This document shows positions 25,186 to 39,026 of a stretch of DNA of 64,000 nucleotides, in pieces. The position numbers and the translations under genes are program-made. This DNA comes from a virus. The stretch's first letter is position 1. The number at the start of each line of letters is the position of its first letter. The notes under the pieces are model-generated. The model saw only the letters and a list, made by a program, of their open reading frames with translations. It was not told where the DNA came from and did not search any database. Location of the stretch: the IMG/VR virus record IMGVR_UViG_3300025168_000032, positions 1 to 64,000 of that record; one strand, written 5' to 3'.

Positions 25186-25206
25186 ACGAGGCCTAGTTAA
25201 AGTGTT

Positions 25207-25500
25207 ATGTCAAAAAAAGTTGATAGTTTTATAAATGAGGCGATAGACAACATTCGTGATGATCGAAAGATAACTCGTGAACTGTTGGATGACGCTATTA
25301 AGTGGCTTGCAAAAGATGAAGCTCGCCACAAAGAAGTCGGAATTATTATTTCGAAATATGTAGAAACCCTACAGAGATCAAATGAGCAACTTGTTAAAGT
25401 TGTCAATCTTATTAGCAAAAAAGAAGTATCCGAGGGGTTATCTGAAAATGATATGTCTCAGATATATGATATGATATCGAAAGGGGATATTGAAGAATGA
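25207..25500 (+). CDS. Small coiled-coil hypothetical protein
   Basis: Helical 97-aa ORF coupled to the next gene by ATGA. Confidence 0.75.
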   Translation: MSKKVDSFINEAIDNIRDDRKITRELLDDAIKWLAKDEARHKEVGIIISKYVETLQRSNEQLVKVVNLISKKEVSEGLSENDMSQIYDMISKGDIEE

Positions 25501-26110
25501 CAAAAAGGATACAGAACAAGATCACCAATAGATTTGATTCTATATCAGATCCCTATGGTCGAAAAGAGACCAGAGATTCTATGGTATTTGATTTTGTCCA
25601 AAATGAGCTTTCTAATCCATACACAGACACTCAGTGTTTTGGTGTCATATTAATGATCGAAACCCAAGGTATATTGGGACCTGACGGTTCGACCTTGCCA
25701 ACAACCCCCAACCCAACTCATCCATTCGTTATCACTGCTAGGGTGCGCCCTCTTGAGCCCATGATCGAAGCTCAGGCTTTAGACGAGCCTTGCAAATTCA
25801 AAAGCGATCCTACTGCGCTGTATGAAAATTTAATGCAACATCCCATCGCATATTCCGAAACCCTAGATGGTGATGAGAGTTTGTTTATACCAACTGTCGG
25901 TGATGTCGTTCCGATTTATTATGACTTAGAAGGCCCGACCTCGCAAGGAAAAAAGAGAGGGCTGAGATTTAAAATGCAAAGAGTCAGGAGAGCAGAAGGC
26001 GGTTTTGATGCAACATGCTTAGCAGCGCTTGGAACCAAATTAATTGACGGAAAAATTTCATTAAGCAGAGTCGGAACCCCAGTATCAGTTATTGGTGTTG
26101 CTGGTGCTGG
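25497..26110 (+). repeat. Duplicated ~0.6-kb segment, copy 1
   Basis: Colinear with 26893-27500 at a constant offset of 1390 nt over the aligned core. Includes an identical 32-nt block (25884-25915 = 27274-27305). Confidence 0.95.
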
Positions 26111-26888
26111 TGCTGCTGGAGCAGCAGGTTCTTACGGAGGAGCAGGTGCTGGAAATGCACAACAGGTGTTGATTCCATTCTTGGACTGCAAATTCGCAAC
26201 TAAAGGGTTTCAAGCTTCAACATTTGGAAAAGGAGACAGGGTAAAAAAGAAACAAATCAAACATGTTGTTTTGCACTCCACAGCCGGCAGTACTGGAAAC
26301 GGTAAGGCAAAAAGTACGATTGGCAGATTTTCTAGAACGCCAATTACAACAGGGTTTACAGACAAGAGTAAACCCAAAGGTCAACGGAAAAAGAATCCAC
26401 CATGTTCAGATTACGCACCCGGTCCACCATTTGATCCTCATAAGATGCCCCATGGGACAATTTGCCGAGAAAGAAAAGGAAAAAAAGGAAGACCAGCAAA
26501 ATACACTGTCGAAAAGAGAGTAAACACATCTATTCACTATGCATGCGATCAGGGAGGAAATATAATCCAAGGCTTGAACGAACGCCACAGAGGCTGGCAT
26601 GCCCCCGGTATGAATAAAACTTCTGTTGGAATTGAAATGTGCGGAGATCCCGGAAAGGGCAAAGGGCAAGGCGCAACTCCTAAATATGCTTCTATGTACA
26701 ATGAAAAACTTTTAGGAGCATGTGCGAAATTAGTAAAAGATATTTGCAAAAGGCACGGTTTGTCAATTAATAGAGATACCATTCGTGGACACGAACAGTC
26801 TAGCACGAATAGATCTGACCCCGGAGATAAAAAGAATCCCGGAGCATGGGATTGGGATGATTTCCTACAAAGAGTAAGGAGGGCATAG
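25497..26888 (+). CDS. gp5-like spike N-domain fused to N-acetylmuramoyl-L-alanine amidase (Amidase_2)
   Basis: OB-fold-like IPTVGDVVPIYY, Gly/Ala linker, then VVLHSTAG, SIHY, GWHA, SVGIEMCG, IRGH and SDPG. Confidence 0.85.
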   Translation: MTKRIQNKITNRFDSISDPYGRKETRDSMVFDFVQNELSNPYTDTQCFGVILMIETQGILGPDGSTLPTTPNPTHPFVITARVRPLEPMIEAQALDEPCKFKSDPTALYENLMQHPIAYSETLDGDESLFIPTVGDVVPIYYDLEGPTSQGKKRGLRFKMQRVRRAEGGFDATCLAALGTKLIDGKISLSRVGTPVSVIGVAGAGAAGAAGSYGGAGAGNAQQVLIPFLDCKFATKGFQASTFGKGDRVKKKQIKHVVLHSTAGSTGNGKAKSTIGRFSRTPITTGFTDKSKPKGQRKKNPPCSDYAPGPPFDPHKMPHGTICRERKGKKGRPAKYTVEKRVNTSIHYACDQGGNIIQGLNERHRGWHAPGMNKTSVGIEMCGDPGKGKGQGATPKYASMYNEKLLGACAKLVKDICKRHGLSINRDTIRGHEQSSTNRSDPGDKKNPGAWDWDDFLQRVRRA

Positions 26889-26892
26889 ACGA

Positions 26893-27500
26893 ATGAGTTT
26901 TAGTAAAAAAATGACTAACAAGTTTGATTCTATATCAGACCTTTATGGCAGGAAGGAAGCTAGAGATTCTTTGATTTTCGACGCTATGGTAAATAGCCTT
27001 TCTAGCCCGTATGGAGATACGCAGCTTTTTGGCGTTATATTGATGATCGAAACCCAAGGCATATTGGGCCCTGATGGCACAACCTTGCCGACGACCCCTA
27101 ATCCGACTCATCCATTTGTTATCACTGCTAGGGTTCGTCCACTCGCCCCATCAGCAGAGAGTTTTAATTTAGATGAGCCTTGTAAATACAAGAGCGATCC
27201 TACCGCATTGTACGAGAATTTGATGCAGCACCCAATTGCTTATTCTGAAACCTTAGATGGCGATGAGAGTTTATTTATACCAACTGTCGGTGATGTCGTT
27301 CCGATCTATTATGATTTGGAGGGCCCTACATCTTCTGGCAAGAGGCGTGGACTCCGTTTTAGAATGCAAAGAGTCAGGAGAGCAGAGGGTGGTTTTGATG
27401 CAACATGCATAGCAGCCTTGGGGGCGAAACTTGTAGATGGAAAAATTTCATTAAGCAGAGTTGGAACCCCAGCATCAGTTATTGGTGCTGGTGGTGCTGG
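26893..27500 (+). repeat. Duplicated ~0.6-kb segment, copy 2
   Basis: Matches 25497-26110. Similarity ends in the Gly/Ala-rich linker. Confidence 0.95.
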
Positions 27501-28416
27501 GGGCGTAGCAGGAGCCGCAGGTGCTATAAGTGGCGCCGGAGTTGGAGCCACCCCCGGAACCCTTTCTCCTGCTACTCTAGCAGTGTGGCCAAGCGGAGTT
27601 ATAGGTGTAAAGAAAGGAGAAAAAGTGACTGGGGCCCCACGAGGGGTTTTCAAACAAGCAATGGCAAGAAGGGCTTGGTGGATGAACAAAGCTAATAATC
27701 CAAGATACCCACAAGTAGGGGCAAACAAATCAGGGAGAGATGTGAAGACTATAAAAAAGCCAAATCTTTTAACAATTGTTGACGGCACAAAGTCGAGAAA
27801 TGAGAAAAATTGTTGGACATATGATTTGAGTGTCGGAACAGACGGGGTCAAAGGTATTCTAGTCTCGACTTACAGTGGTATTGGTAGAGGAAGCTTTAGT
27901 CCCGGTGCTCCATACGCGCCTACAAAAAAAACAAAGGGTCCGGCTGTTGATTATAACAACGGAAACAATTCCACTAGCGCTGGTATGAAAATATTTGGTA
28001 GAAAACGAACTTTTAAGAAAAAAACAAATGCTTCCATTAGAGCGTTACAAATTTGGGGTATCGAACCGTGGAATTCACTCGAAGACAACAGGGGGGCCAT
28101 TGCCCACGAAACAGCACGAAAAGGAAGCCGAGCGGTTTCTTTTGGTTGTTTAGCTACGCATGGAAATGTTCTAGATCCTACTGACTCTGTACATTTTCAC
28201 GCTTGGGAAATTTGGAAAGGTGGGTCTTGGGTATATTTTTATAGCGGTCACACCGATGAATCAAAAGCTGGTAACGTTTACTGGCATAAGGGCCCCGGCA
28301 ATCCCATAAAGTCGGGAGAAAATAGAAAAACTTGGGATTGGAGTCAACCCCAAGGTGGACACTCAGCCCCGCCTCCAAAACCACCCCGAAAGAAGAAAAA
28401 GAAGAAAAAGAAATAA
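26893..28416 (+). CDS. gp5-like spike N-domain fused to an L,D-transpeptidase-like (YkuD_2-type) domain
   Basis: Same N-domain as 25497. C-domain LLTIVDG.KSRNEK.CWTYDL, STSAG, LQIWGIEPWN...RGAIAH...SFGC, ending in poly-Lys. Confidence 0.7.
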   Translation: MSFSKKMTNKFDSISDLYGRKEARDSLIFDAMVNSLSSPYGDTQLFGVILMIETQGILGPDGTTLPTTPNPTHPFVITARVRPLAPSAESFNLDEPCKYKSDPTALYENLMQHPIAYSETLDGDESLFIPTVGDVVPIYYDLEGPTSSGKRRGLRFRMQRVRRAEGGFDATCIAALGAKLVDGKISLSRVGTPASVIGAGGAGGVAGAAGAISGAGVGATPGTLSPATLAVWPSGVIGVKKGEKVTGAPRGVFKQAMARRAWWMNKANNPRYPQVGANKSGRDVKTIKKPNLLTIVDGTKSRNEKNCWTYDLSVGTDGVKGILVSTYSGIGRGSFSPGAPYAPTKKTKGPAVDYNNGNNSTSAGMKIFGRKRTFKKKTNASIRALQIWGIEPWNSLEDNRGAIAHETARKGSRAVSFGCLATHGNVLDPTDSVHFHAWEIWKGGSWVYFYSGHTDESKAGNVYWHKGPGNPIKSGENRKTWDWSQPQGGHSAPPPKPPRKKKKKKKK

Positions 28417-28434
28417 TCACTAACAGGAGTTACG

Positions 28435-29358
28435 ATGAGTAAAGTCGATGGTTATATACCAAATATAGACGGGTTAACAGAACAAGCAAAATTAGAAATT
28501 AAAAAAGGTGTCAATGACGGTTTATTCTGCACTGATGTCCAAGAGAAAGTACCAAATCGATACAAAGCAGGTTGCGAAAAGGTTATAAAAGGTAGAAACA
28601 ATTCTTGGATTGTGCTGGGTCGTGACAGGCCTTCGACAGTCGTAACGGGCGCTGGCGGAGCAGGATACACCCAGTGTGGGATGATCGATATGGTAGTTGG
28701 CCTTGGTGCTGTTACATCTACGAGGGAAATAAAGAAAGGGGAAGACCCCCTCGGTCCCAAGAATGTAGTTAGCGCTAATTTTGCTGCCGATGCTGCTAGG
28801 TTATACATGTCGCAAAGGTGTGTTGGTAAAGGTGGCATTGATGCCTACCTTGGACTAAGCAGAACCAGAGGTCCCTCTGCTCAAAATAAATCGGCAATTG
28901 CATTAAAAGCTGACCATGTTCGCATTGTAGGGCGTGAGAATGTAAGGATCTATGCCGCCAGAACACAAAACTTTCAAGGCTTTGGTCTTGGCGGCGAACC
29001 GACTACGTTAGGGACGCCAATTACAAAATCAACCATTGAACTGGTAGCCGGGAGAGAAGAAGATCTCCAACCAGCGGTTCTGGGTGATAACTTAAAAAGA
29101 TATCTTGAATCCAAAGACGAGTCGATGACAAACGTACTTAGAGTCATTCTTGGTATTGTAGGTCAATTAATGGAATTGAACTCCGCTGTTATGTTTCTAA
29201 ACCCTGCTTTGATGAAAAACATCCCCAAAAACATTAATGACTATTTCGATACAATTATAACCACGTTAAACAACGAAATCGACAAGATTAATTCACTGGA
29301 CAAACTGATAGTATCTGGTGGTAACCCACTACTTAGCAACACCGTATTTATAACTTAG
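28435..29358 (+). CDS. Putative baseplate hub/spike protein (gp5 C-terminal-like)
   Basis: Beta-rich repeats such as SWIVLGRD, IDMVVG, ARLYMSQ and SAIALKADHVRIVGRENVRI. Position between the spike-enzyme genes and the baseplate genes. Confidence 0.5.
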   Translation: MSKVDGYIPNIDGLTEQAKLEIKKGVNDGLFCTDVQEKVPNRYKAGCEKVIKGRNNSWIVLGRDRPSTVVTGAGGAGYTQCGMIDMVVGLGAVTSTREIKKGEDPLGPKNVVSANFAADAARLYMSQRCVGKGGIDAYLGLSRTRGPSAQNKSAIALKADHVRIVGRENVRIYAARTQNFQGFGLGGEPTTLGTPITKSTIELVAGREEDLQPAVLGDNLKRYLESKDESMTNVLRVILGIVGQLMELNSAVMFLNPALMKNIPKNINDYFDTIITTLNNEIDKINSLDKLIVSGGNPLLSNTVFIT

Positions 29359-29367
29359 AGGTAAAAA

Positions 29368-32300
29368 ATGTCAAAAACTCCCATATGTGCGCCAATAGCG
29401 CCATTGCCAAAGCCCGACCCAAAGGCCCCATGTCCAACTTGTTTACCAGACAAGACCTTTGTTGAGCCAACGTGGCACACAACAGAATCCCCTTATTTAA
29501 ACAGGAAAACCTGCGAGTATATGGTATCGGTAACCGTTAACAGTCGTGGGGATTCGCACACAACAAGCTCAGTCAAAAAAGCTGGATTGCCTTTTAAAAA
29601 GTTGTTGAAAACCTACATAAGACCCGGCCTTCGGGAATTATTAAGATATTTCGACAAATTAGAAAATGATGAAATAGTGTGTGCGTCTTATACAACAGAA
29701 CAAGGCGGAATAAAATCTGTTTCCATAGGCATGGAAGGGCCCAAGCCCAAGGTCAAAGTCAAATCAAAATCTTCTAAATACGCTTTTGATAAAGAGTGTA
29801 GGGAGATCTTAGATTTCGATTATTCTGAATTTATAAAAATCAAAAACAAACCATCCACATTGCAAGGCGACAGTGTTCACAAGATATATAACATCGACGA
29901 ACAGATAAGACAAAAATACCCACAGATAAAAAATATAAATGCTATTGAGTTATATGCTAGAGCTATAGACTACCATTTTACTGGATACGGTGAAAGCGTA
30001 ATGAAAGTATTAATAGCAATACCTGCATTTATATTTGATCAAGTACCGGAGGCCCCAGACTTACCAGACGTAGATGTCAGCGCTGAGAGATTATTCATTT
30101 CTCCAAGAAGGTTACACACCGACATTACTCGGTTGAAAGAAGTGTTGTTATCTTTTTCTCAATATCAAGCATTTTTCTATCGCTACCAGAATGGGACTTT
30201 ATATTTTAAAGACACAGAGACAACAGAAGAGTCAGACGAAGCAGAGACCAGTGACCCGCTAAAGAAAGTAGGGAAAAAGTTTTATATAAAATTTTATGTT
30301 AAAAGATTAGAACTTTTCGAGAATGCGCTAGAAAAACTTCTCAAACAGAACGGGTTCACATATAGTACATTTCTTAATAGAAGAACCTCAGACATGCCTT
30401 GGAGAATAAAATTTGTTTTTGACAAGAGCGACGAAAAGCGCCCTTTTACTCTTAAGAGAGTGGGGGTGAAAATAGAAGGTTGTTATTACAAAAAATTAGG
30501 AAAAGGCCTGTCATCTTTTCTCAAAAAAGGACTGATACAAGACCAAACCCTAATGGGCTTAATAGCAAATATAAAAGATATTAGGAGTGATCTGGACGCC
30601 CGAGAAACGCCCGGATGGCTAGATTTTTGTTTAAAGTATATCTATCCCAATTTGGGAGTAAACTATGGCTCAAAAGACAAATATAAAGAACAAACAGCAG
30701 TTAATTGCTTAGGGGATAAACTTGGATTAAACGGAATCGATGATTTCGTACACAATGCTGTAGGGGAGTTCACGGATTTGTTCGCATATCAGTTTAACAA
30801 AAACCAATGTCGCGCCCTAGGGCAAAAACTTCCGGAAATCGACTTGTTTGATTCATCCGGAGGCATTCAGGACAAATACATTGATGAGTGGTATAACAAC
30901 AAATACGCAAAAATCGGTGAACCATCCATTCTAGAAGAAATGCTAAAGGATATAAAAAGTAATTGGGATAATGTAAACAAGTCAGAGGACAAATTGAAAA
31001 ATCTTATGGGGGCGTTAAATCCTTGTAATTTTTTCCAGCTTGGGCTAAAGGCCATACAGTGTTTGATGTCTGGTATGTCCTTCGAGGCCTCTATGAGGAT
31101 CATGGCTAAAAAGGCCTTATCAACAATGGCTAGTGATGCTTTGGAAAAAGTTATGGAAGCTTTACCATACGACAAGCAAGAAGAAATAAGGAAAATGGTG
31201 GAAGACAAATTTGGAAATATGCCTGCTCCTTGGGAGCAGGGGTATAAGCCCGGTAGCTTTGATAAAGTTATTGACAAGAGGACTGCTGACGGGATAGCTT
31301 CGAAAGAAAAAGCAGCAAATGAAATGTTGGATAATCAGAGCGATGCTGTAACGAAAATGAAAGAACTAAACAAAAGGGTGGAGGAGTTAGCCACTTGTCT
31401 TGAAAATCCAAACATCTGTACGCGAGACGGGAAATTGAGACCCCCTCCGCCACCAGTAGTCGCAGTTTATCCACCATTGACATATGTCGAAAACATGAGA
31501 AGGGGCGATCAAGGAGCAAGCGTGACAGCCTTACAAGTAGCTTTGGTAACGCTAGGACACAAATTGGTCCCAGATGGGGATTTTGGTAAAATAACCAGAA
31601 ACGCCCTGAAAGCATATCAGAGATCTGCAAAAATACTGGTTGATGGGATTGCTGGTCCACAAACAAGAGGCAGTATAAATTCAGCTTTAGCAGCTAAAGC
31701 ACAAGCGGAAAATGACAGTGAGGCCCCTAACGAAGACCCAATAGTTATTAACAAGCCAAACTCTACAGAAAAACAAGTTCTTGAATCGTCGGGTGTTGTA
31801 CAGGGATCTACCGATAGTTTATACGGTGATATTCTAAAGGAACTTATGGATGCTCACAAGCAAACAAACACAAGTGTACAAAACACAGAGCGAGAATTGA
31901 AAGAAGATGAACAGAAGTTAGAAAATCTAAAGGGCAAGCTAAGGAGCGTTGGCGAGGAACAAGAGCAAAAACAAAAAGATTTGGAAGCGGCTAAAGCTAA
32001 AATGAGGGCTTACATGAACCAACTTGAAATAGACTGGTTTGATTATGGCGGTATCAAGACAATGACCGCTTGGCAGAAAGTGGAGGTGAAAGATCTCCAA
32101 GACAAAATAGACGAAGCACTACAGGCAACGGCCAAATTGGAACAAGATTATAATAAGATGTTGCCCGGTATCGAGTATTTGGAAAAGAGAATTCTAAAAA
32201 AAGCCGCAGCCGTAAAAGCAGCATACGAAAAAAGAACAGAATCATATGATACTGCTATGAATTTAGAGAAAATGGTAGACGACAAGATAAAAGAATTACA

Positions 32301-35300
32301 AGGAGAGTGGTTTACGAAGAGAACTGAGTTGCAATTGGCGATGGCTGAACAGGCTAAAAAGTATTCAGCCAATGATACAACGTTAAATGAAGAATCTGGG
32401 CCGTATGCTAACTGGAATGATCTCTCGGAAGATGAAAGGACGTCCCTAACCGCAAGAGAGAGAAACAAACACGACGACAGAATCATGAAAGGTGTAAGTC
32501 CAGACGATCCTGATTTCGAGCAAGGCACCTATGGTAAAGCCTTGGGGGATATCCAATCAGCAGTAACATCGGCATATGTGGAAGCAATAATGGAGACTGC
32601 GGAATTACAACAACTTATGGGTATACTTAACAAACTCCCCGGAGTTAAGCTTATTGGTTCTTTCCTTGCGGGTTTGAAGTGCCCCTTGCCAAGTTTTATC
32701 TACCCTCCATTATCAAGTTTTCTTGGAACGTTGACTCTTGATCCTTGTGGCCCCGGCAAAACAAGGATATCCTTTGGTGAGCTTCCAAAACTGCGAAGCT
32801 TTAACGGTTGGAATTTTTTAAATATATTAAAAAATGCTTTTGTAGATGCTCTTTTGCAGGTAGTAACCGAGATAATGTTTGCTATAATTTTTAAGCTGGC
32901 TTCTATTGTGTTTGACGTAACATGCCAGACTTTAGCAGCCGCAGGTCAAGCCGCTTTTAAAGGAATAGTTGGTGACAGCGGATGGAGAAACGCGGTAGAC
33001 GATTTCTTTTGTGGCAAAGACAAGCCTGAAGACGAGCGTGATGATCACGCTGCGCTGGTTTTAAAAACAGCCGTCCCTCAAATACCCGGAGATGCCAAAG
33101 ATCTGGCTAAGACGATGTCTGTTATCGGTACTAAATCTGAATATGCAAGAGCAATCACTTCCCTACCAGAAGACCAAGATATGGGTTTTATGAAAAATCT
33201 ATCTTCACTTATAGTTGCAAACCACCCAGAGTACGCACTGACTATGGGAACTCCTGAAATGCTCGTTATGTTCTTTTCGCAGGTAGGAAACCTTTTAACA
33301 GCAGACCAGATTGTCCAACTGAGAGATTCTTTAGATTTTGAGTCGGAAATTCCTCTAGATGACAGTATATGTTTGACAGACGATGAACTTGACCAATGGG
33401 CTCAGGATAGAGAAGACGCATTAACAAACGCAGGATTAGATCCTCAAATAGCAAAAGATTTTGTTGCGAGGCAAGATGAAAGAAGGAAATCGGATTTGGC
33501 AGATATAGCAGATATTCTATCACAATCACCAGAGGGAATGCTAGAGAACGCCTTGAACGAAGCGCTTGGTGCAAGTGATCCTGATCCGGGTTGTGACGTC
33601 TCCAAGTCAGCAGTACAATTAGAGAAAATAGAGCAGGTCAAAGATGCTGTCGGTAAAGCTACCAAGGGCATGTTCAAGAGGTTAGAAAAGGCCTTTTTCG
33701 ATGATATAATTCTGTGGCGCTGGCCAATGGACCCAAGGTCATGGAATGACACACCGGGAATTCTAAGCACCATATTGGCAGATACACAGGGGTATACTTT
33801 AAATTTCCACAATATAGCAAGAAACAATATCTTTTTTAAAACATCTAACTTTGTTACTTTTGGTTTTTATCCTAAGTACGAAGAGTACCCCGAGACAGTC
33901 GGGATAAAGTTCAGAGAAGCCCTTTTGGAAACCAGCTTTAAGTCAGAAGGCACTAAGACCAAAATACCAATTAAGTATGATATTACTGATGACTATTCTT
34001 GGAAAAGTGTGATCACGTTGACGGACGAATTCAAAGAGACAAACGACCTTGGTCAAGAAGTCTACCCTCGTGCGTTCGATTACAAATTCAAACAAAAATC
34101 ACCAGAAAACATACTAGGTACGTTTAGGGTTGAAAAACCTTTGGGCCCCGATAATAAAGACTATCAAAAATATAAACTGTTGCCTTCTAACGGACAACTT
34201 GGAAAAAGTGATTTCAGAGGTTTGGTGATGAAGAACCTGTTGAACAACTGGGTCTATAAAGATTTTAACAATGTAGATATTGATGAGTCCGAGGCAAGGT
34301 CTCTGATGTCTAAATTGCAGAACATTGTAAATACAAAATTTGTAGCTTCTCTAATGAGCGTTGATGGGAATATCCCATCTGGTTTCCTCCACGGTAGTAA
34401 AAACCAAGAAATAAAAGCAGAACACCTTGAATATGTTGCCCCGGATGGGGCAGAATACGATTTTGAAGAAACAGACGCAGTTTTCGGAAGAGCAAAGTCT
34501 GGAAACGGTAGGGTCAAGTTCCTAGACCCTGCTAAGTATGGTGGAGACTATACTTCACCAAGTATTTATATTTCACCCCCTAAAGACGAAGGTTTGATGC
34601 AAATTGCGAGGGTTTTTGTTCCGCATATTTCGGAGGGGTGTAACCCAGATTTGTCAAAGTCTCATTTTTTAAAATTGGATCAAATAAAAGAAATTATAGA
34701 TGCTGCGAGAGCCGGTATGAAACCCCATAAGAAGTTGGAATTTTCCCCTGAGTGTGTAAGAGAATTCCCATTTGATAAAATAGCTTCTCCTGCCACTCTT
34801 GCTTCACTAGAAGGGGTCGTTATAGCCACCATAAGAGTATATCTGGCAGACTTTTTTGCCAAAACGATGCCTATTTGGTCAAGCATTTCTTTGGTTTCTT
34901 TGGTCAACAACGCTGAGAACTATGATGAATTGCTACCAGAGTATATTGTCATGCTTATGAAGCGAGGTCTTTCTAGCGAGAAGTCCATCTTTTCTCGTGC
35001 TACTTATGAGGCTTACCCGTATTGGCTTTTATTCTTGGAGCAAGCGGCTCAAGTTGTGCAAAGGAGAGTGAAGAACGGCTCCATAGAAGAGACAACAGAT
35101 ATTAAAGAGGCCTTTGATACTATCAACGAACTACAAAATCAACATGTTGTTGCGAGTCCAAAAGATTTGATACTTGTGGCAAAATCATACGATGGAGATG
35201 TAAAGGTCAACAATTTCGCAAATGATTATTTGGCAGAATCGATTGTTAAGGGTGGGGCATTGATAGGTGGCGTTATGGAACGTGGAGAGTTGCCTTCTGG

Positions 35301-36792
35301 CACGAGTTCTTTTGGAAGTATCTTGTGGTCTGCTTTCGGCTTAAAAGAGGCCCGGTTTAGCGCTAAAATGTGGACTCTTCACCGTGGCCGCAAAGCTGCC
35401 ATGACTTTGTTAAAATACCTTGTGATCGGTGAAATCAATGAATATCAGTTAACGATGGCAAAGAAATTGCATGAAATGAATAATATGCCGCATTTTAATG
35501 ATTTGGGTTTGTCCTTGATAGGGAAGCATGGCGCAGCGGTAGGTAAAGCTCCAGAGAGTGGAATCTGGGCGACTACACCAGATAGTGAAGGGTTCAAAGT
35601 GCCACCAGAAACAAGAAGAAAATATGGTGATGTAAATTCTGTGTCGTCCAACCCGCTTGAGAGACACAGCATAGAGAGTGCAAAGGGAAAGTTGCCCAAA
35701 GTTAAACAAGAAGATTTTGACTTTATGAAAGAAAACGGAGCACTTTTTCTAGAAAAATATATAAGACTATTCGATCGTACAGAGGAAAGCAGCACAAAAC
35801 CAATCCCAGATTTTATCAAAAACAGACCAAACCACCTCAAGGGTGTAGTTAACATATCTGATTTCAAGAAGTTTCTTAATGACAACAAAGATTCGATTCC
35901 GGCAGATATAAGAATATCAGATTGGTTTATGGCAAAAGAGATTGCCGAGTCTGAAGAAAATAAGCCTGCTGAGTATGAGGACATAGTTGGTATAAAATAC
36001 GGTGTTAGGCTATGCTATATACCCGACGAAGATTTCCGGCCTTTTAGCTTGCCAAACACAGAGGACAACAATAAGGCAATTTTAGAAAAATCTTTTAAGT
36101 GCAAGCCAATATCATTCGAGGTAGAAAGGGAATCTACGGTACCCGGCTCCTTATCTGGTCCGACTTATCAGGTTAGTGTGCTAGAAGGTTCCAAAAATAC
36201 TTTTCCCATAGAGGAGATAGAACAGGAAATACCTGATACTGAGTTAATTAAATTAATTGAATTTGATGATGATTTAAATCAAGAATTAAGGTGTTATGTC
36301 GATAGGTTGACCCTTGGCACAAGATTTGATTTAATATTTCATAAGACTCTGCACCTAAAAAGAATAACCTCCCTGCTTATGATATCATCTTATGACAGTT
36401 GGGTGCCTTCGATAGGCGCGAAAGGCAGCAAAGAAAGGATAGAACCAGAAATCCCCGAAGCTTACGAGGACATGGAAGACGATCCACCATCCTATTCAGA
36501 CCCCGGTGGAACGCCATATTTTAACGATAGCAGAAAAGAATGTAGAAAATTGTTTATAGCCAATTACAAGAGAAGCGATTATGACCCAAAGGACGAAGAA
36601 GAAGATTTCGACCCAATCAAGGACAACGTACAACAAATGATGTCAAATACATTTAGCGCTGTTTCATACGGCTCAGATGTTCCTTTCTGGATGAAATGGA
36701 GAGTTCTTAAGGAAAACCCTGACGATAAAGAGGGTAACGCTTGTGGTAATCAGTTCACTAAACTATTTAAGAAAACAGAGGAAGAAGAATAA
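29368..36792 (+). CDS. Giant (2474 aa) virion-associated protein with an internal peptidoglycan-binding domain and coiled coil
   Basis: PG_binding_1 pattern RRGDQGASVTALQVAL...PDGDFG..T..A.K.YQ....I.VDGIAGPQT (~31489-31690), followed by a long coiled coil. Confidence 0.75.
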   Translation: MSKTPICAPIAPLPKPDPKAPCPTCLPDKTFVEPTWHTTESPYLNRKTCEYMVSVTVNSRGDSHTTSSVKKAGLPFKKLLKTYIRPGLRELLRYFDKLENDEIVCASYTTEQGGIKSVSIGMEGPKPKVKVKSKSSKYAFDKECREILDFDYSEFIKIKNKPSTLQGDSVHKIYNIDEQIRQKYPQIKNINAIELYARAIDYHFTGYGESVMKVLIAIPAFIFDQVPEAPDLPDVDVSAERLFISPRRLHTDITRLKEVLLSFSQYQAFFYRYQNGTLYFKDTETTEESDEAETSDPLKKVGKKFYIKFYVKRLELFENALEKLLKQNGFTYSTFLNRRTSDMPWRIKFVFDKSDEKRPFTLKRVGVKIEGCYYKKLGKGLSSFLKKGLIQDQTLMGLIANIKDIRSDLDARETPGWLDFCLKYIYPNLGVNYGSKDKYKEQTAVNCLGDKLGLNGIDDFVHNAVGEFTDLFAYQFNKNQCRALGQKLPEIDLFDSSGGIQDKYIDEWYNNKYAKIGEPSILEEMLKDIKSNWDNVNKSEDKLKNLMGALNPCNFFQLGLKAIQCLMSGMSFEASMRIMAKKALSTMASDALEKVMEALPYDKQEEIRKMVEDKFGNMPAPWEQGYKPGSFDKVIDKRTADGIASKEKAANEMLDNQSDAVTKMKELNKRVEELATCLENPNICTRDGKLRPPPPPVVAVYPPLTYVENMRRGDQGASVTALQVALVTLGHKLVPDGDFGKITRNALKAYQRSAKILVDGIAGPQTRGSINSALAAKAQAENDSEAPNEDPIVINKPNSTEKQVLESSGVVQGSTDSLYGDILKELMDAHKQTNTSVQNTERELKEDEQKLENLKGKLRSVGEEQEQKQKDLEAAKAKMRAYMNQLEIDWFDYGGIKTMTAWQKVEVKDLQDKIDEALQATAKLEQDYNKMLPGIEYLEKRILKKAAAVKAAYEKRTESYDTAMNLEKMVDDKIKELQGEWFTKRTELQLAMAEQAKKYSANDTTLNEESGPYANWNDLSEDERTSLTARERNKHDDRIMKGVSPDDPDFEQGTYGKALGDIQSAVTSAYVEAIMETAELQQLMGILNKLPGVKLIGSFLAGLKCPLPSFIYPPLSSFLGTLTLDPCGPGKTRISFGELPKLRSFNGWNFLNILKNAFVDALLQVVTEIMFAIIFKLASIVFDVTCQTLAAAGQAAFKGIVGDSGWRNAVDDFFCGKDKPEDERDDHAALVLKTAVPQIPGDAKDLAKTMSVIGTKSEYARAITSLPEDQDMGFMKNLSSLIVANHPEYALTMGTPEMLVMFFSQVGNLLTADQIVQLRDSLDFESEIPLDDSICLTDDELDQWAQDREDALTNAGLDPQIAKDFVARQDERRKSDLADIADILSQSPEGMLENALNEALGASDPDPGCDVSKSAVQLEKIEQVKDAVGKATKGMFKRLEKAFFDDIILWRWPMDPRSWNDTPGILSTILADTQGYTLNFHNIARNNIFFKTSNFVTFGFYPKYEEYPETVGIKFREALLETSFKSEGTKTKIPIKYDITDDYSWKSVITLTDEFKETNDLGQEVYPRAFDYKFKQKSPENILGTFRVEKPLGPDNKDYQKYKLLPSNGQLGKSDFRGLVMKNLLNNWVYKDFNNVDIDESEARSLMSKLQNIVNTKFVASLMSVDGNIPSGFLHGSKNQEIKAEHLEYVAPDGAEYDFEETDAVFGRAKSGNGRVKFLDPAKYGGDYTSPSIYISPPKDEGLMQIARVFVPHISEGCNPDLSKSHFLKLDQIKEIIDAARAGMKPHKKLEFSPECVREFPFDKIASPATLASLEGVVIATIRVYLADFFAKTMPIWSSISLVSLVNNAENYDELLPEYIVMLMKRGLSSEKSIFSRATYEAYPYWLLFLEQAAQVVQRRVKNGSIEETTDIKEAFDTINELQNQHVVASPKDLILVAKSYDGDVKVNNFANDYLAESIVKGGALIGGVMERGELPSGTSSFGSILWSAFGLKEARFSAKMWTLHRGRKAAMTLLKYLVIGEINEYQLTMAKKLHEMNNMPHFNDLGLSLIGKHGAAVGKAPESGIWATTPDSEGFKVPPETRRKYGDVNSVSSNPLERHSIESAKGKLPKVKQEDFDFMKENGALFLEKYIRLFDRTEESSTKPIPDFIKNRPNHLKGVVNISDFKKFLNDNKDSIPADIRISDWFMAKEIAESEENKPAEYEDIVGIKYGVRLCYIPDEDFRPFSLPNTEDNNKAILEKSFKCKPISFEVERESTVPGSLSGPTYQVSVLEGSKNTFPIEEIEQEIPDTELIKLIEFDDDLNQELRCYVDRLTLGTRFDLIFHKTLHLKRITSLLMISSYDSWVPSIGAKGSKERIEPEIPEAYEDMEDDPPSYSDPGGTPYFNDSRKECRKLFIANYKRSDYDPKDEEEDFDPIKDNVQQMMSNTFSAVSYGSDVPFWMKWRVLKENPDDKEGNACGNQFTKLFKKTEEEE
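36763..36769 (+). promoter_or_regulatory. Candidate late-promoter element CTATTTA
   Basis: About 22 nt upstream of the gp25-like start. Recurs upstream of other late-type genes but has low information content. Confidence 0.3.
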
Positions 36793-37172
36793 TGGCCAAT
36801 TTAACAGTAAGATTCCCGTTAGAACAAACAGGAAAAAACACAGGCTTTGATTTACTTTCTAGTGAAGATATAAGGGATTTGGTCAAATTTAATATCAAAA
36901 ACACCCTCTTGACATGTCCGGGCGAACGCACATTTGACAGCGAGGACTTTGGGGCTTGTTTGAGAAAAATATTATTTGAATACCCAACTGCATCTGTTTT
37001 AGACACAGCAGCTTCAGCGATAAGAAAGCAATTGGGGATATTCGTTCCGTATATTGTTTTAGAGGATGTTGATATCACAAACCCGGACAATATGGTAGCA
37101 CATGTCAGGCTACTATACTATATAAATGAAATAGAGGCTAGAGACGAACTGTTAATTAGAGTCAGAGTATAA
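36792..37172 (+). CDS. Baseplate wedge subunit, gp25/GPW-like
   Basis: NIKNTLLTCPGER....DFG..LRKILFE. Confidence 0.88.
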   Translation: MANLTVRFPLEQTGKNTGFDLLSSEDIRDLVKFNIKNTLLTCPGERTFDSEDFGACLRKILFEYPTASVLDTAASAIRKQLGIFVPYIVLEDVDITNPDNMVAHVRLLYYINEIEARDELLIRVRV

Positions 37173-37223: not shown

Positions 37224-39026
37224 ATGCCAAAAAGCAAAAATATTAATATAAAATACACCAGTAGAGAATTTGAATCTATCAAGGAAGACCTTATAGATCA
37301 TGCTAAACGATATTACCCAGATACCTATAGGGACTTCTCGAAGCCTTCATTCGGAGCAATGGTAATAGACAGTGTGGCTTACGTTGGCGATGTGTTGTCA
37401 TATTATTTAGACTATCATGTTAATGAATCCTTTATGGATACGTCGATAGAATTTGATAATATCAGGAAACATGCTAGATCCCTTGGTTATAACTACACTG
37501 GTGTTCCTACTACATACGGTATTTTAGATTTTTATGTTCTATGCCCAGCCAATGCAGAAGGAACAGCCCCAGATTTAACTTACTTACCAACGTTAAAAGC
37601 AGGATCGACCTTTACATCTGAAAACGGTGGAAATTTTATATTAACAGAGGACGTTATCTTCAATAGCGTAAACAACGAATTTAGAGCAGCTAGATTTAAT
37701 GGCGCGACAGGTGCTACAACCAATTTCGCTGTAAAAACTACAGGTCAAGTTCAATCTGGTATGCTGATGTCTGCTGAAGCAGACCTGACAGACGAAGCCT
37801 TCGAGAGATTCAGAAAAGTCAGAGTTGGTGCAGGAGAAGTTACGGATATAACAAGTGTTGTAGATTCCGAAGGAAATAAATACTATGAAGTTGATAACCT
37901 TGCTCAAGAAACCATATTAGTCGAAACCACAAACCCGGACGCCCTCACTGATGGTGTCAGATCTATAATCAAACCTTTTGTGGCCACTAGAAGATTTACT
38001 GTGGAGAGGGACGATACTGGAACATATCTACAATTTGGATTTGGTTCAGGGGAAGAAGACCCAACTGCTTTAGTCGACCCATCAAAAATTGCTTTAAAGA
38101 TGCACGGCAAAAATAATATAACTCTATCTTCTTTTGACCCTAGTAAATTATTAAAAAATGATAAACTTGGTGTCTCTCCTTACAACACAGTCCTCACGAT
38201 CATATACAAGTTGAATAACATTGGATCGATAAATGCAGGAGCGAATAGCGTCAGTGTTGTTTCGCGAGCAATTTATAATTTTAACAACTTAACTAGTTTG
38301 GATACCAGTCTTGTTTCCGGAGTAAAAAACTCTCTAGAATGTACAAATCCGCTTCCCATTACGTCTGTTATCGATAGCTCCGTAACCGTTCAAGAAATTA
38401 AACAAAGAGCAAAGGCATCCTTCGCAGCACAAAGTAGAGCGGTAACAAAGCAAGACTATGAGTCTTTAGTGTACAATATGCCTCCAAAATTTGGAGCAGT
38501 AAAGAGGGCGAATATAGTTAATGACCCTTCTTCAACGAATAGGCGGATTTCCTTATATGTGATATCAGAAGACGATAGCGGCAATTTAGAATCTCCGGGT
38601 CAGGTGACCAAAAACAATATTAAAAATTGGCTTGTATCTTACAAGTCGTTAAACGATGTTATCGACATTTACGATGCTATAGTGATTAATTTTAAAATTA
38701 ATTTTTTAGCTATTTCTGATAAAAGATATGACAATAAAGAGGTACTATTTGCATGTGCAGAGGCCCTTAGAGTATACTTTGAAGACATTCTTTATATCGG
38801 TGAGCCACTATATTTGACTAGATTATACGAGGTCTTGAATAGAGTAGAAGGCGTCGTAGACATAAAAAATGTCTCAATTGATGAGGCCGTTGGCGGATTG
38901 TATTCAGGCGCCAGTTTAAATTTCAAAAAAATTCTATCTAAAGATGGAACATATTATAAAGTTCCTAGAAACGTGGTTCTTGAATTAAAATATCCATCTC
39001 TAGACATAAAAGGTACAGTAAAATAA
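37224..39026 (+). CDS. Baseplate wedge subunit, T4 gp6/baseplate J-like
   Basis: YTSREFESIKEDL...DFS..SFG...D..AYVGD.LSYY.D, LQFGFG and RAVTKQDYE. Confidence 0.9.
   Translation: MPKSKNINIKYTSREFESIKEDLIDHAKRYYPDTYRDFSKPSFGAMVIDSVAYVGDVLSYYLDYHVNESFMDTSIEFDNIRKHARSLGYNYTGVPTTYGILDFYVLCPANAEGTAPDLTYLPTLKAGSTFTSENGGNFILTEDVIFNSVNNEFRAARFNGATGATTNFAVKTTGQVQSGMLMSAEADLTDEAFERFRKVRVGAGEVTDITSVVDSEGNKYYEVDNLAQETILVETTNPDALTDGVRSIIKPFVATRRFTVERDDTGTYLQFGFGSGEEDPTALVDPSKIALKMHGKNNITLSSFDPSKLLKNDKLGVSPYNTVLTIIYKLNNIGSINAGANSVSVVSRAIYNFNNLTSLDTSLVSGVKNSLECTNPLPITSVIDSSVTVQEIKQRAKASFAAQSRAVTKQDYESLVYNMPPKFGAVKRANIVNDPSSTNRRISLYVISEDDSGNLESPGQVTKNNIKNWLVSYKSLNDVIDIYDAIVINFKINFLAISDKRYDNKEVLFACAEALRVYFEDILYIGEPLYLTRLYEVLNRVEGVVDIKNVSIDEAVGGLYSGASLNFKKILSKDGTYYKVPRNVVLELKYPSLDIKGTVK

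What the first reader, a model, noticed from the sequence alone, without database searches (positions are those of the whole stretch)
25497..29358. Duplicated spike carrier with interchangeable cell-wall enzymes
Seen: two adjacent genes share a colinear ~200-aa N-domain (clear DNA similarity, 32-nt identical block) and diverge in a Gly/Ala linker into unrelated C-domains, an amidase and an LD-transpeptidase-like domain. A separate beta-rich gene follows. Established: T4 gp5 is OB-fold, lysozyme and beta-helix in one trimer, and IPTVGDVV resembles the gp5/VgrG OB motif. Inference: a split gp5 with two alternative enzymatic heads forming mixed or alternative spikes, with the shared DNA acting as a recombination point for cassette swapping, like polymorphic VgrG effectors.
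Basis: partly seen in the sequence, partly recalled or inferred. Interest (0 to 1): 0.8.

Follow-up and report, generated by a model that had tools for sequence, protein, structure and literature searches.

The report
Tandem phage tail lysins, swappable heads
Two neighbouring genes of an uncultured 186-kb marine phage share one anchoring domain but carry different cell-wall-cutting enzymes, and related phages have fused at least a dozen other enzyme types to that same anchor, so this looks like a plug-in tool holder on the phage tail.

Summary
Genes A (25497-26888) and B (26893-28416) share a 191-aa N-domain (84% aa, 76% nt identity, with the 32-nt identical block). They diverge at a Gly/Ala linker into an Amidase_2 head and a YkuD_2-like (L,D-transpeptidase-fold) head that keeps the His/Cys motif. 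The tandem pair recurs in independent assemblies and runs, so it is not an artefact.

The N-domain is a new sequence family, always N-terminal. In 44 of 62 related viral contigs it lies directly upstream of a conserved 307-aa gene, inside the baseplate module (giant PG-binding protein, gp25-like, gp6-like). At least 12 Pfam families follow it, among them VanY, Amidase_2, M23, M15, SLT, lysozymes, YkuD_2, LysM, OmpA and a DSP-like phosphatase. The heads are scattered over the N-domain tree. A close relative is 90-100% identical in DNA except across B's head (about 50%), which is a direct cassette replacement.

A medium-confidence model shows helix plus OB-like barrel. Its best matches are myophage central spikes, but only weakly (Z 5-6). 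A separate endolysin-like gene exists elsewhere in the genome.

Verdict: baseplate-associated lysins with swappable heads, resembling T4 gp5*. The split-gp5 reading and mixed spikes remain unproven.

The parts
25207..25500 (+). 97-aa acidic, helix-rich protein. Its stop overlaps A's start (ATGA). Function unknown.
   Evidence: ORF; overlap read. A 94-116-aa gene holds the same slot in L001, L002, L005-L007 and in Flavobacterium phage immuto. No Pfam or PHROG hit.
25497..26888 (+). Gene A, 463 aa: N-domain, Gly/Ala linker and Amidase_2 head.
   Evidence: Ortholog P0001 is 98% identical in the N-domain and 95% in the head.
25497..26081 (+). A's N-domain (aa 1-195): two N-terminal helices plus a five-strand OB-like barrel. 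Proposed docking module.
   Evidence: AF2 model with pLDDT 62. VIA best matches are 9vzk_q (Z 6.3), 8kea_D (Z 5.5, 113 aligned residues covering helix plus barrel) and 9ki1_V (Z 5.1). C99, H115 and C174 are nearly invariant.
26082..26165 (+). A's Gly/Ala-rich linker, variable in length.
   Evidence: Read from the translation. In runs X2 and X3, 26094-26151 is replaced by 68 other letters. Identity to L002 drops to 0.73 here.
26166..26885 (+). A's head: an Amidase_2 (N-acetylmuramoyl-L-alanine amidase) domain with a basic insertion of about 75 aa. The Pfam match covers 26511-26828.
   Evidence: It is 45% identical to the head of L012, whose N-domain is only 27% identical. It is only 30% identical over 86 aa to the genome's other amidase.
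26893..28416 (+). Gene B, 507 aa: N-domain, Gly/Ala linker, YkuD_2-like head and poly-Lys tail. It has its own AAGGAGG ribosome-binding site inside the end of A.
26893..27471 (+). B's N-domain (aa 1-193), paralog of A's.
   Evidence: 84% aa identity to A; 94% to its ortholog in L002.
27472..27570 (+). B's Gly/Ala linker, and the left breakpoint of the head cassette.
   Evidence: Identity to L002 falls from about 0.9 to about 0.5 from about 27480. Contigs of X2, X3 and X6 match up to 27491-27494 and then continue with other sequence, giving loose ends at 27480-27483.
27571..28413 (+). B's head: L,D-transpeptidase-fold (YkuD_2-like) domain. Catalytic-type His405 is at 28105-28107 and Cys419 at 28147-28149. 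The R-K8 tail is at 28387-28413.
   Evidence: H405, S416, G418 and C419 are invariant. Relatives hit PF13645. hhalign to P0012 covers the motif. The head is only 40% identical to ortholog P0002 but 48% to P0010.
25884..25915 (+). 32-nt block identical to 27274-27305 (codes FIPTVGDVVPI).
27274..27305 (+). Second copy of the 32-nt identical block.
28435..29358 (+). 307-aa conserved partner protein (beta-rich body plus helical hairpin). Candidate spike body or hub-side partner.
   Evidence: 254 homologs and over 500 IMG/VR contigs. AF2 pLDDT 83.5. An N-domain gene lies directly upstream in 44 of 62 loci. hhalign to the immuto 378-aa family gives probability 60%, E 8.7e-5. ESM neighbours are Gp5_C, Gp5_trimer_C and DUF2345 at 0.82-0.84, a lead only.
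29368..36792 (+). Context: 2474-aa protein with a PG_binding_1 domain (aa 715-767).
   Evidence: Syntenic giants of 2563 aa (L001) and 1897 aa (L007) are.
36792..37172 (+). Context: gp25-like baseplate wedge protein.
   Evidence: phrog_261 at 2.6e-6. PF04965 at 3.7e-4, below its cut-off. The L007 ortholog is listed with PF04965.
37224..39026 (+). Context: gp6-like baseplate wedge protein.
   Evidence: phrog_219 at 3.8e-15. 31.6% identical over 99% of its length to the annotated baseplate wedge protein of Flavobacterium phage immuto.

Best explanation
A and B are tandem paralogs of the phage's baseplate-associated cell-wall enzyme, the functional counterpart of T4 gp5* (the OB-plus-enzyme part of gp5).

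Each protein has three parts. The first is a conserved N-terminal module of about 180 aa, made of helices plus an OB-like barrel, which I infer docks the protein at the centre of the baseplate next to the conserved 307-aa protein. The second is a flexible Gly/Ala tether. The third is a catalytic head. A's head is a muramoyl-L-alanine amidase. B's head is an L,D-transpeptidase-fold Cys/His enzyme that probably cuts or remodels peptide stems or cross-links.

The genes are co-transcribed with the baseplate genes. I infer that the enzymes open the peptidoglycan locally when the tail fires.

The N-module is kept because it must fit the resident baseplate. The head is a cassette that is exchanged at the linker, between phages and between paralogs' lineages. 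Duplication of the carrier lets one phage hold two chemistries, or three in other lineages.

Shown: the architecture, the synteny, the head diversity, a cassette replacement and the genuineness of the tandem.

Inferred: virion location, docking by the N-module, the OB identity, and the time of action.
For: Architecture and paralogy.

N-module:
- It is always at residue 1 and is about 165-180 aa long in 42 family members.
- It is a new family: 35 representatives among 1.8 billion proteins, with no Pfam or PHROG hit.

Baseplate context:
- gp25-like and gp6-like genes lie downstream.
- The same order is found in L001, L002, L005-L007.
- An N-domain gene lies directly upstream of the 307-aa homolog in 44 of 62 anchored IMG/VR loci. 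The 15 without a detectable N-domain gene all have a 389-1291-aa ORF in that slot.

Heads:
- Families seen: DSPc, YkuD_2, LysM, VanY, M15_3, M15_4, M23, SLT, Phage_lysozyme2, Amidase_2 and DUF2272.
- In the 44 anchored members: VanY 16, Amidase_2 8, M23 3, OmpA 1, Phage_lysozyme 1, M74 1.

Swapping:
- On the N-domain tree the amidase copy is nested in the YkuD_2 clade.
- P0015 (unknown head) is sister to P0014 (VanY) at branch lengths 0.02-0.05. P0018 and P0028, and P0011 and P0012, are also sister pairs with different heads. DSPc heads appear in three places.
- Window against L002 DNA is 0.9-1.0 identical except across 27480-28430, where it is 0.47-0.58.
- Head and N-domain identities are discordant.
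- Contigs from other samples leave the window sequence at 27480-27494.

Not the endolysin: a separate PG_binding_1+Amidase_2 gene lies at genome 143362-144270.

Fold: the top VIA matches are the P1 baseplate chain q (Z 6.3), A-1(L) chain D (Z 5.5, covering helix plus OB; that spike is described as an N-terminal helix plus OB fold in PMC10966104), Mu chain V, VgrG1, Afp8 and PVC.

Expression: tight spacing, each gene with its own ribosome-binding site, and no + strand terminator between the genes (the only + strand terminator-like match, 28120-28143, lies inside B's coding sequence).
Against: There is no direct evidence that either protein is in the virion. No cultured phage carries the N-domain or the 307-aa protein, so no proteome can be consulted.

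The N-domain model is only medium confidence (pLDDT 62). Its spike matches (Z 5.1-6.3) barely exceed generic OB folds such as IF1, Nmd3 and the proteasomal Rpt N-domain (Z 5.0-5.4).

No sequence link exists to Gp5_OB, Phage_base_V, T4 gp5 or the N-part of the immuto 378-aa protein.

The proteins have no beta-helix, and no PAAR or Gp5_C was found in the genome, so the geometry of any spike is unknown.

B itself has no significant Pfam hit, and no activity of a YkuD_2 domain as a hydrolase was tested here.
Confidence: 0.65

Rival explanations
1. Literal split gp5 with heteromeric spikes. The N-module is the true gp5/gpV-type OB domain of the central spike, and the 307-aa protein is the gp5C-like needle encoded separately. 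A and B co-assemble, or alternate, in the trimer so that one particle or one burst carries two enzymes. This is the first reader's full reading, and is a more specific form of the best explanation.
For: The helix-plus-OB layout matches central spikes best (PMC10966104). The named ESM neighbours of the 307-aa protein are Gp5_C, Gp5_trimer_C and DUF2345. The immuto 378-aa protein in the same slot aligns to the 307-aa protein only from about residue 240 on, and so has about 100 extra N-terminal residues. No other gp5, gpV or PAAR was detected in the genome. Arrays of exactly two or three paralogs occur. Co-resident N-domains resemble each other more than those of other genomes: 85% in the window and 47-52% in L005, against 22-39% between arrays.
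Against: All the structural similarity is weak (Z at most 6.3; ESM score under 0.9, which the tool calls a lead only; hhalign probability 60% over 62 columns). The AF2 monomer of the 307-aa protein is a compact beta domain plus a helical hairpin, not an obvious triple beta-helix, and it found no spike in the PDB. The N-domain shows no profile similarity to immuto's N-part. No multimer prediction was possible. L028's three N-domains are only 26-31% alike.
Confidence: 0.35
2. Tail-lumen or ejected proteins. The N-module binds the giant PG-binding (tape-measure-like) protein, and the enzymes travel with it through the tube instead of sitting on the spike.
For: The giant PG_binding_1 protein is always nearby. 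Flexible linkers and very basic heads and tails would suit passage through the tube and binding to the envelope. In A-1(L) the spike's N-terminal helices intertwine with tape-measure C-terminal helices (PMC10966104), so an N-terminal helix could bind such a protein.
Against: The immediate and most constant neighbour is the 307-aa gene, not the giant. In L007 another gene lies between them. Family members reach 1334 aa, which is large for a lumen passenger. No test was possible.
Confidence: 0.15
3. Endolysins. Both are lysis-from-within enzymes, and the shared N-domain is a regulatory or cell-wall-binding domain.
For: PHROGs name the amidase part 'endolysin'. Modular endolysins with swapped domains are common knowledge. 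There is no proof of virion location.
Against: The genes sit in the baseplate operon, not beside a holin-like gene. A canonical PG_binding_1+Amidase_2 gene exists at genome 143362-144270. The N-domain is strictly N-terminal, is syntenic with a structural-module gene in 44 of 62 loci, and has no similarity to known wall-binding domains. Heads include a DSP-like phosphatase and proteins up to 1334 aa, which is atypical of endolysins.
Confidence: 0.08
4. The duplication is an assembly artefact, for example two strains collapsed in tandem.
For: Metagenome assemblies can chimerise related strains. The two N-domains are 76% identical in DNA.
Against: The same A+B order is found in three other assemblies from other samples. 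Contigs of three independent runs span A's head into B's N-domain. Both copies show the codon-position pattern of purifying selection. Other lineages have arrays of three.
Confidence: 0.01

Closest known systems
T4 gp5, the baseplate hub subunit and tail lysozyme, which matures into gp5* (OB plus lysozyme) and gp5C (beta-helix)
   Same: An enzyme is tethered to an OB-type module at the centre of a contractile-tail baseplate. The gene lies in the baseplate gene block (T4 order 53-5-5.1-5.4-6-7). A/B plus the 307-aa gene mimic the gp5*/gp5C division.
   Different: There is no sequence relation. The heads are an amidase and a YkuD-fold domain, not GH24 lysozyme (one search finds no Phage_lysozyme in the genome). 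The division is between genes, not by proteolysis. No beta-helix was detected. There are tandem paralogs and many alternative heads.
Evolved VgrG spikes and polymorphic T6SS effectors, where a conserved spike or trafficking part carries a variable C-terminal toxin (for example peptidoglycan-degrading VgrG C-domains). From general knowledge.
   Same: A conserved N-terminal structural module is followed by an interchangeable C-terminal enzyme. Head types are scattered on the carrier's tree. The weak structural matches of the barrel include VgrG1, VgrS, Afp8 and PVC spikes.
   Different: This is a phage infection device, not a bacterial weapon. There are no immunity genes, no gp27-like domain and no beta-helix in the same chain. 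The carrier is only about 180 aa.
Enzyme-bearing baseplate cores of other myophages: the A-1(L) hub gp15 with peptidase and endoglucanase domains and its spike gp25 (PMC10966104); the Staphylococcus phage 812 central spike with a phosphodiesterase-like petal domain and its hub with a CHAP 'cleaver' domain (PMC13433997).
   Same: Several different wall-degrading activities are mounted at the baseplate centre. The spike starts with an N-terminal helix plus OB fold. Non-peptidoglycan activities occur (phosphodiesterase there, DSP-like phosphatase heads here).
   Different: In those phages the enzymes are domains of a single hub or spike protein that also has tube-like or beta-prism parts. Here the carrier is minimal, the enzymes are on separate tandem paralogs, and the family is unrelated in sequence.
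Domain shuffling in modular endolysins and virion-associated peptidoglycan hydrolases
   Same: The same catalytic families occur (Amidase_2, VanY/M15, M23, SLT, lysozymes), and evolution is mosaic.
   Different: The constant part is not a wall-binding domain. It is an N-terminal module tied by synteny to baseplate genes. YkuD_2-type heads, which predominate in the window's own N-domain clade (B, P0002, P0004-P0006, P0009, P0010), are to my knowledge not a described class of phage tail lysins. A literature search returned only two papers that mention YkuD at all, both surveys of phage lytic proteins that I did not read.
L,D-transpeptidase-fold enzymes that act as hydrolases or exchangers (E. 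coli DpaA/LdtF; T6SS effector Tlde1). From general knowledge, not tested here.
   Same: A YkuD-type His/Cys active-site motif is conserved in B's family. A destructive rather than synthetic role is plausible.
   Different: Membership is by Pfam YkuD_2 through relatives only. No activity data exist. B also has a long N-terminal extension of the head and a poly-Lys tail.

Membership tests
T4 gp5 (baseplate hub subunit and tail lysozyme) | N-terminal Gp5_OB domain recognisable by sequence (PF06714) | tested here: not met
   There is no Pfam hit for A or B at E up to 0.1 and no PF06714 match anywhere in the genome at E up to 10. hhalign of the N-domain profile against T4 gp5 gives probability 0.2%.
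T4 gp5 (baseplate hub subunit and tail lysozyme) | OB fold at the N-terminus (structure) | tested here: inconclusive
   The AF2 model (pLDDT 62) has a five-strand barrel at residues 44-165. The best VIA matches are spike OB domains at Z 5.1-6.3, but unrelated OB folds score 5.0-5.4.
T4 gp5 (baseplate hub subunit and tail lysozyme) | GH24 lysozyme domain | tested here: not met
   The heads are Amidase_2 and YkuD_2-like. No PF00959 match exists in the genome. One distant family member does carry Phage_lysozyme.
T4 gp5 (baseplate hub subunit and tail lysozyme) | C-terminal triple beta-helix (Gp5_C repeats) in the same polypeptide | tested here: not met
   A ends with the amidase and B with a poly-Lys tail. 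There is no PF06715 match in the genome.
T4 gp5 (baseplate hub subunit and tail lysozyme) | Encoded in the baseplate gene block | tested here: met
   gp25-like and gp6-like genes lie 8-10 kb downstream on the same strand, and the order is conserved in relatives.
gpV / Mu gp45 / VgrG central spike | Phage_base_V OB domain (PF04717), followed by a beta-helix or beta-prism and an apex | tested here: not met
   There is no PF04717 match in the genome at E up to 1. No beta-helical part follows the barrel; a linker and an enzyme follow instead. Fold-level likeness of the barrel is inconclusive.
Amidase_2 (N-acetylmuramoyl-L-alanine amidase, PF01510): gene A | Profile match above the gathering score, with zinc-ligand motifs | tested here: met
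   78.3 bits against a cut-off of 26. The alignment to AmpDh2 keeps GIE and GH...DPG. The first His ligand region (VLHSTAG) lies before a basic insertion of about 75 aa, and is covered only by a PHROG match over residues 245-437.
YkuD_2 L,D-transpeptidase catalytic domain (PF13645): gene B | Profile match above the gathering score | tested here: inconclusive
   B alone has no hit. Homologs with alignable heads pass: P0006 31.8 bits and P0012 60.2 bits against a cut-off of 27. P0009 scores 22.1 bits.
YkuD_2 L,D-transpeptidase catalytic domain (PF13645): gene B | Conserved His ... Ser/Thr-x-Gly-Cys active-site motif | tested here: met
   H405, S416, G418 and C419 are invariant in five B-type proteins. 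They align with the corresponding H...SWGC of P0012 inside its YkuD_2 match.
Virion-associated peptidoglycan hydrolases (tail lysins) | Peptidoglycan-active domain in a protein encoded among tail or baseplate genes | tested here: met
Virion-associated peptidoglycan hydrolases (tail lysins) | Physical presence in the particle | not testable with these tools
   No cultured phage in GenBank carries the N-domain or the 307-aa protein. The nearest cultured relatives (Immutovirus, Mel-JY01) lack the N-domain gene.
Polymorphic carrier-plus-cassette proteins (evolved VgrG logic) | One conserved carrier domain joined to many unrelated C-terminal domains, with evidence of exchange | tested here: met
   16 head clusters and at least 12 Pfam families. 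Sister N-domains carry different heads. A cassette is replaced between near-identical genomes. Head and carrier identities are discordant.

The most novel reading that the evidence does not exclude
The about 180-aa N-module is a universal socket adaptor for the centre of the baseplate in a large uncultured marine myophage clade. Paralogs would co-assemble through it into one hetero-oligomeric ring, so that a single particle carries two or three different envelope-cutting enzymes. Exchange of heads at the Gly/Ala linker would be a main route by which these phages adapt to new cell-wall chemistries. The heads would include non-peptidoglycan tools such as DSP-type phosphatases and esterase-like domains, and L,D-transpeptidase-fold enzymes used as wall breakers.
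Probability: 0.25. Interest if true: 0.75.

Novelty: new variant of a known kind. Interest (0 to 1): 0.6.

Why it matters
Tail-borne wall enzymes decide whether a contractile phage can get its tube through the envelope. So far they have been seen as fixed domains of hub or spike proteins such as T4 gp5, the A-1(L) hub and the phage 812 spike and hub.

Here the enzyme sits on a small, separable carrier. In nature that carrier has been joined to more than a dozen enzyme families, has been duplicated independently in several lineages, and shows a clean cassette replacement between two nearly identical genomes.

If the carrier really docks at the spike, this gives three things. The first is a natural, minimal 'plug' for mounting foreign enzymes on a phage tail. 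The second is a catalogue of enzymes that marine phages use against Gram-negative walls, including L,D-transpeptidase-fold and phosphatase-like heads whose substrates are unknown. The third is a testable case of hetero-oligomeric spikes.

It also assigns a probable role to two abundant families of hypothetical proteins in ocean viromes. The 307-aa family alone occurs on more than 500 IMG/VR contigs.

Tried and rejected
N-domain, searches that found nothing:
- Pfam and PHROGs.
- ESM Atlas by features gave no usable hit.
- Foldseek against the PDB gave nothing at E up to 1e-3.
- hhalign against T4 gp5.
- hhalign against the immuto 378-aa protein and its family, also with an 85-sequence profile.

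307-aa protein, searches that found nothing useful:
- Pfam and PHROGs.
- Profile search of PDB sequences found only helical-bundle noise.
- Foldseek against the PDB gave nothing.
- The wide VIA search was filled by helical hairpins matching residues 210-307, so the beta part remains untested.
- BFVD returned one unnamed homolog only.
- hhalign against T4 gp5 gave nothing.

B family: a profile search of PDB sequences found nothing.

Genome-wide Pfam searches without a match: Phage_base_V, Phage_sheath_1, Gp5_OB, Gp5_C, Phage-tail_1 (gp27 N), PAAR and Phage_lysozyme. These show only that the families are not detectable by sequence.

GenBank phages: no record holds the N-domain (one search hit only amidase domains of Cutibacterium phage endolysins) or the 307-aa protein.

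Pattern-based locus search with the N-domain found one locus only. I therefore anchored the survey on the 307-aa gene.

T4-type late promoter TATAAATA: 10 matches against 6.07 expected. The nearest upstream match on the + strand is at 23704, so it is not informative.

Recombinants joining A's N-domain to B's head: none in the contigs of four runs. Contigs drop rare variants, so this says little.

Origin of A's amidase from the phage's own endolysin: rejected, since they are only 30% identical over 86 aa.

An idea from reading alone, that the upstream 219-280-aa gene (24343-25185) is a gp55-like late sigma factor, got no Pfam or PHROG support and is not claimed.

Full report
WHAT IS THERE

The window is the first 64 kb of a single 185,652-bp IMG/VR virus contig, estimated 92% complete by CheckV. 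All long ORFs are on the + strand.

Gene A (25497-26888, 463 aa) and gene B (26893-28416, 507 aa) are 4 nt apart. B has its own AAGGAGG ribosome-binding site inside the end of A, and A's start overlaps the stop of a 97-aa gene.

BLASTP gives 161/191 identical residues (84%) without gaps over the first ~195 residues, and nothing beyond. At DNA level this stretch is 76.3% identical. 89 of the 136 differences are at third codon positions. The reported 32-nt identical block is exact at 25884-25915 = 27274-27305.

Both proteins then run into Gly/Ala-rich linkers and unrelated heads.
- A's head is an Amidase_2 domain at 78.3 bits. It aligns to Pseudomonas AmpDh2 with the GH...DPG motif kept.
- B has no Pfam hit of its own. 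Its homologs P0006 and P0012 pass the YkuD_2 threshold. The His...Ser-x-Gly-Cys motif is invariant in the B family and aligns with that of P0012.

NOT AN ARTEFACT

The A+B tandem occurs in a 140-kb contig from another sample and in two short contigs (L002-L004). Contigs from three other runs bridge A's head into B's N-domain.

WHAT THE N-DOMAIN IS

It is a new sequence family. An exhaustive phmmer search of 1.84 billion representatives found 35 proteins. Pfam, PHROGs and the ESM Atlas gave nothing. In all 42 members examined the domain starts at residue 1 and spans about 165-180 aa. A Cys pair and a His are nearly invariant.

An AF2 model built on 40 sequences is of medium confidence (pLDDT 62). 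It shows two N-terminal helices followed by a five-strand barrel at residues 44-165. Foldseek found nothing significant.

The Foldseek-independent structural search ranked these first:
- a chain of the phage P1 baseplate (9vzk_q; Z 6.3, rmsd 3.3, 78 residues, chain residues 5-82);
- a chain of the cyanophage A-1(L) baseplate (8kea_D; Z 5.5, 113 residues covering helices plus barrel).

Further matches were Mu chain V, VgrG1, Afp8, PVC and other injection-system spikes at Z 5.0-5.2. Unrelated OB folds (IF1/eIF1A, Nmd3, RNase II, proteasomal Rpt N-domains) also score 5.0-5.4.

[quoted passage not shown] The P1 paper describes a trimeric spike gp5 like T4 gp5 without the lysozyme (PMC12810830). 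I did not verify which protein the two PDB chains are.

The fold is therefore OB-like and laid out like the start of a central spike, but the scores do not prove kinship. Profile comparisons with T4 gp5 were negative, and the genome has no Gp5_OB or Phage_base_V match.

CONTEXT

Downstream lie, in order:
- a conserved 307-aa gene (28435-29358);
- a 2474-aa protein with a PG_binding_1 domain;
- a gp25-like gene;
- a gp6-like gene.

The same order holds in a distant 178-kb relative with one carrier gene (L001), in L007 (one carrier with an M23 head) and in Tara Oceans contigs L005 and L006. L005/L006 have three tandem carrier genes, with an unknown head, a DSP-like phosphatase head and a VanY head.

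To survey more widely I anchored on the 307-aa protein, which has 254 homologs and relatives on more than 500 IMG/VR contigs. Of 62 loci with at least 2.5 kb upstream:
- 47 have a detectable N-domain gene, 44 of them directly upstream of the anchor;
- the other 15 have a 389-1291-aa ORF in that slot;
- copy number is one in 46 loci and three in one.

Carrier plus 307-aa protein is therefore a conserved gene pair, and tandem duplication is an occasional elaboration. Co-resident N-domains are more alike (85% in the window, 47-52% in L005) than N-domains of different arrays (22-39%). L028's three are only 26-31% alike.

The nearest cultured phages by the gp6-like protein are Flavobacterium phage immuto and Microcystis phage Mel-JY01, at about 31% identity. 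Immuto has no carrier gene. In the equivalent slot it has a 378-aa protein whose C-terminal part aligns with the 307-aa family (hhalign probability 60%, E 8.7e-5). Its extra ~100 N-terminal residues show no profile similarity to the carrier.

The ESM Atlas's nearest named neighbours of the 307-aa protein are all spike-type clusters (DUF2345, Gp5_C, Gp5_trimer_C). They score only 0.82-0.84, which the tool itself rates as a lead. My AF2 model of the protein (pLDDT 83.5) found no PDB match for its beta part.

THE HEADS ARE CASSETTES

- Diversity. Among 36 family proteins there are 16 head clusters. Pfam assigns YkuD_2, Amidase_2, VanY, M15_3, M15_4, M23, SLT, Phage_lysozyme2, LysM, DUF2272 and DSPc. 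The 44 synteny-anchored members add VanY (16), Amidase_2 (8), M23 (3), OmpA, Phage_lysozyme and M74.
- Tree. On a maximum-likelihood tree of the N-domains, head types are scattered. The amidase copy (A and P0001) is nested inside the YkuD_2 clade. Several well-supported sister pairs carry different heads: P0015 with P0014 at branch lengths 0.02-0.05, P0018 with P0028, and P0011 with P0012. DSPc heads occur in three places.
- A direct replacement. The window and L002 are 90-100% identical in DNA from 25000 to 29600, except for A's linker (0.73) and the whole of B's head. Across 27480-28430 identity is 0.47-0.58, and it returns to 0.99 at the first base of the 307-aa gene.
- Discordant identities. 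B's head is 40% identical to its 'ortholog' P0002 but 48% to P0010, whose N-domain is only about 50% identical. A's head is 45% identical to that of L012, whose N-domain is 27% identical.
- Other samples. Contigs match B's N-domain up to 27491-27494 and then continue with different sequence.

Exchange at the linker is thus documented. Exchange between the A and B repeats within one genome is not: no such joints were seen, but only contigs could be laid.

ENDOLYSIN OR TAIL ENZYME?

The genome has a second Amidase_2 gene at 143362-144270. It has the classical PG_binding_1+Amidase_2 endolysin layout and is only 30% identical to A's head over 86 residues. This, together with the baseplate synteny, the strictly N-terminal non-wall-binding carrier, the sizes up to 1334 aa and the phosphatase-like heads, argues against A and B being the lysis enzymes. 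Virion presence could not be tested, because no cultured phage has these genes.

MECHANISM PROPOSED

A and B are the phage's gp5*-like tail enzymes. I infer the following:
- The N-module docks at the baseplate centre beside the 307-aa protein.
- The linker gives reach.
- The heads cut the wall when the tail fires. A removes stem peptides from the glycan. B, with an L,D-transpeptidase-type Cys/His site, attacks or exchanges peptide bonds at the diamino acid.

The carrier is conserved because it must fit the resident baseplate, while heads are exchanged at the linker. Duplication gives two chemistries in one phage. Whether A and B share one oligomer, whether the barrel is a true gp5/gpV OB domain, and whether the 307-aa protein is the needle all remain open.

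COMPARISON AND NOVELTY

The logic is that of T4 gp5, of enzyme-bearing hubs and spikes (A-1(L) gp15; phage 812 gp112 and gp110; PMC10966104, PMC13433997) and of evolved VgrGs. A and B fail sequence membership of gp5 and gpV, and they lack a lysozyme and a beta-helix. I therefore file them as a new variant of a known kind: a minimal, separately encoded carrier with a very broad head repertoire, occasional tandem arrays, and YkuD-fold and phosphatase-like heads. Literature searches returned no title that describes this family; I judged the lists by titles and abstract openings and read none of those papers.

Noticed in passing
Relatives P0016, P0022, P0029, P0038 (for example L005:2250-3611): Some carriers bear a dual-specificity/PTP-like phosphatase head with an HCxHGADRTG active-site motif (DSPc 1.5e-6; also the Tc-R-P and PTP-NADK families). 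This is a non-peptidoglycan tool on a tail enzyme carrier, and its substrate is unknown.
   Followed up: partly
Relatives P0019 and P0030: These heads have no Pfam hit but by eye show GDS...GGN...DG.H blocks like SGNH esterases. They could be a peptidoglycan or LPS de-O-acetylase. Untested.
   Followed up: no
window 28387-28413, and the C-termini of P0004, P0005, P0010: B-type proteins end in a run of 8-12 Lys/Arg after a Pro-rich stretch. A's amidase has a Lys/Pro-rich insertion of about 75 aa. Both heads are strongly cationic, which would suit binding to LPS or membranes.
   Followed up: no
genome C1:143362-144270 (L011:1156-2064): A 302-aa PG_binding_1+Amidase_2 protein, the likely true endolysin, lies directly after a ClpP-like 204-aa gene and a 138-aa protein with a hydrophobic N-terminus (a possible holin or spanin candidate).
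   Followed up: partly
window 26094-26151 and 26050-26200: The Gly/Ala linker of A varies in length between samples. In runs X2 and X3, 56 nt are replaced by 68 nt, and this is the only low-identity spot of gene A against L002.
   Followed up: partly
window 25207-25500; L093:10550-10900: A small acidic helical protein of 94-116 aa always precedes the carrier gene. In Flavobacterium phage immuto it precedes the 378-aa spike-slot gene. It may be an assembly chaperone. No family hit.
   Followed up: no
window 25791-25793, 25839-25841, 26016-26018 (A residues C99, H115, C174): Two cysteines and one histidine are nearly invariant across the N-domain family. They may form a disulfide or a metal site that stabilises the barrel.
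   Followed up: no
L093 (MW353176.1 79212-80348) and PP395634.1 159997-161097: The cultured relatives Flavobacterium phage immuto and Microcystis phage Mel-JY01 have a 378-aa 'hypothetical protein' in the spike slot. It has over 500 metagenomic homologs, and its C-part matches the 307-aa family. It is a good entry point for experiments, because a host exists.
   Followed up: partly
L050, L061, L083 (carrier genes of 1201-1334 aa): Some carriers are three times longer than A or B, so they probably bear several domains behind the same N-module. Their architecture was not resolved individually.
   Followed up: no
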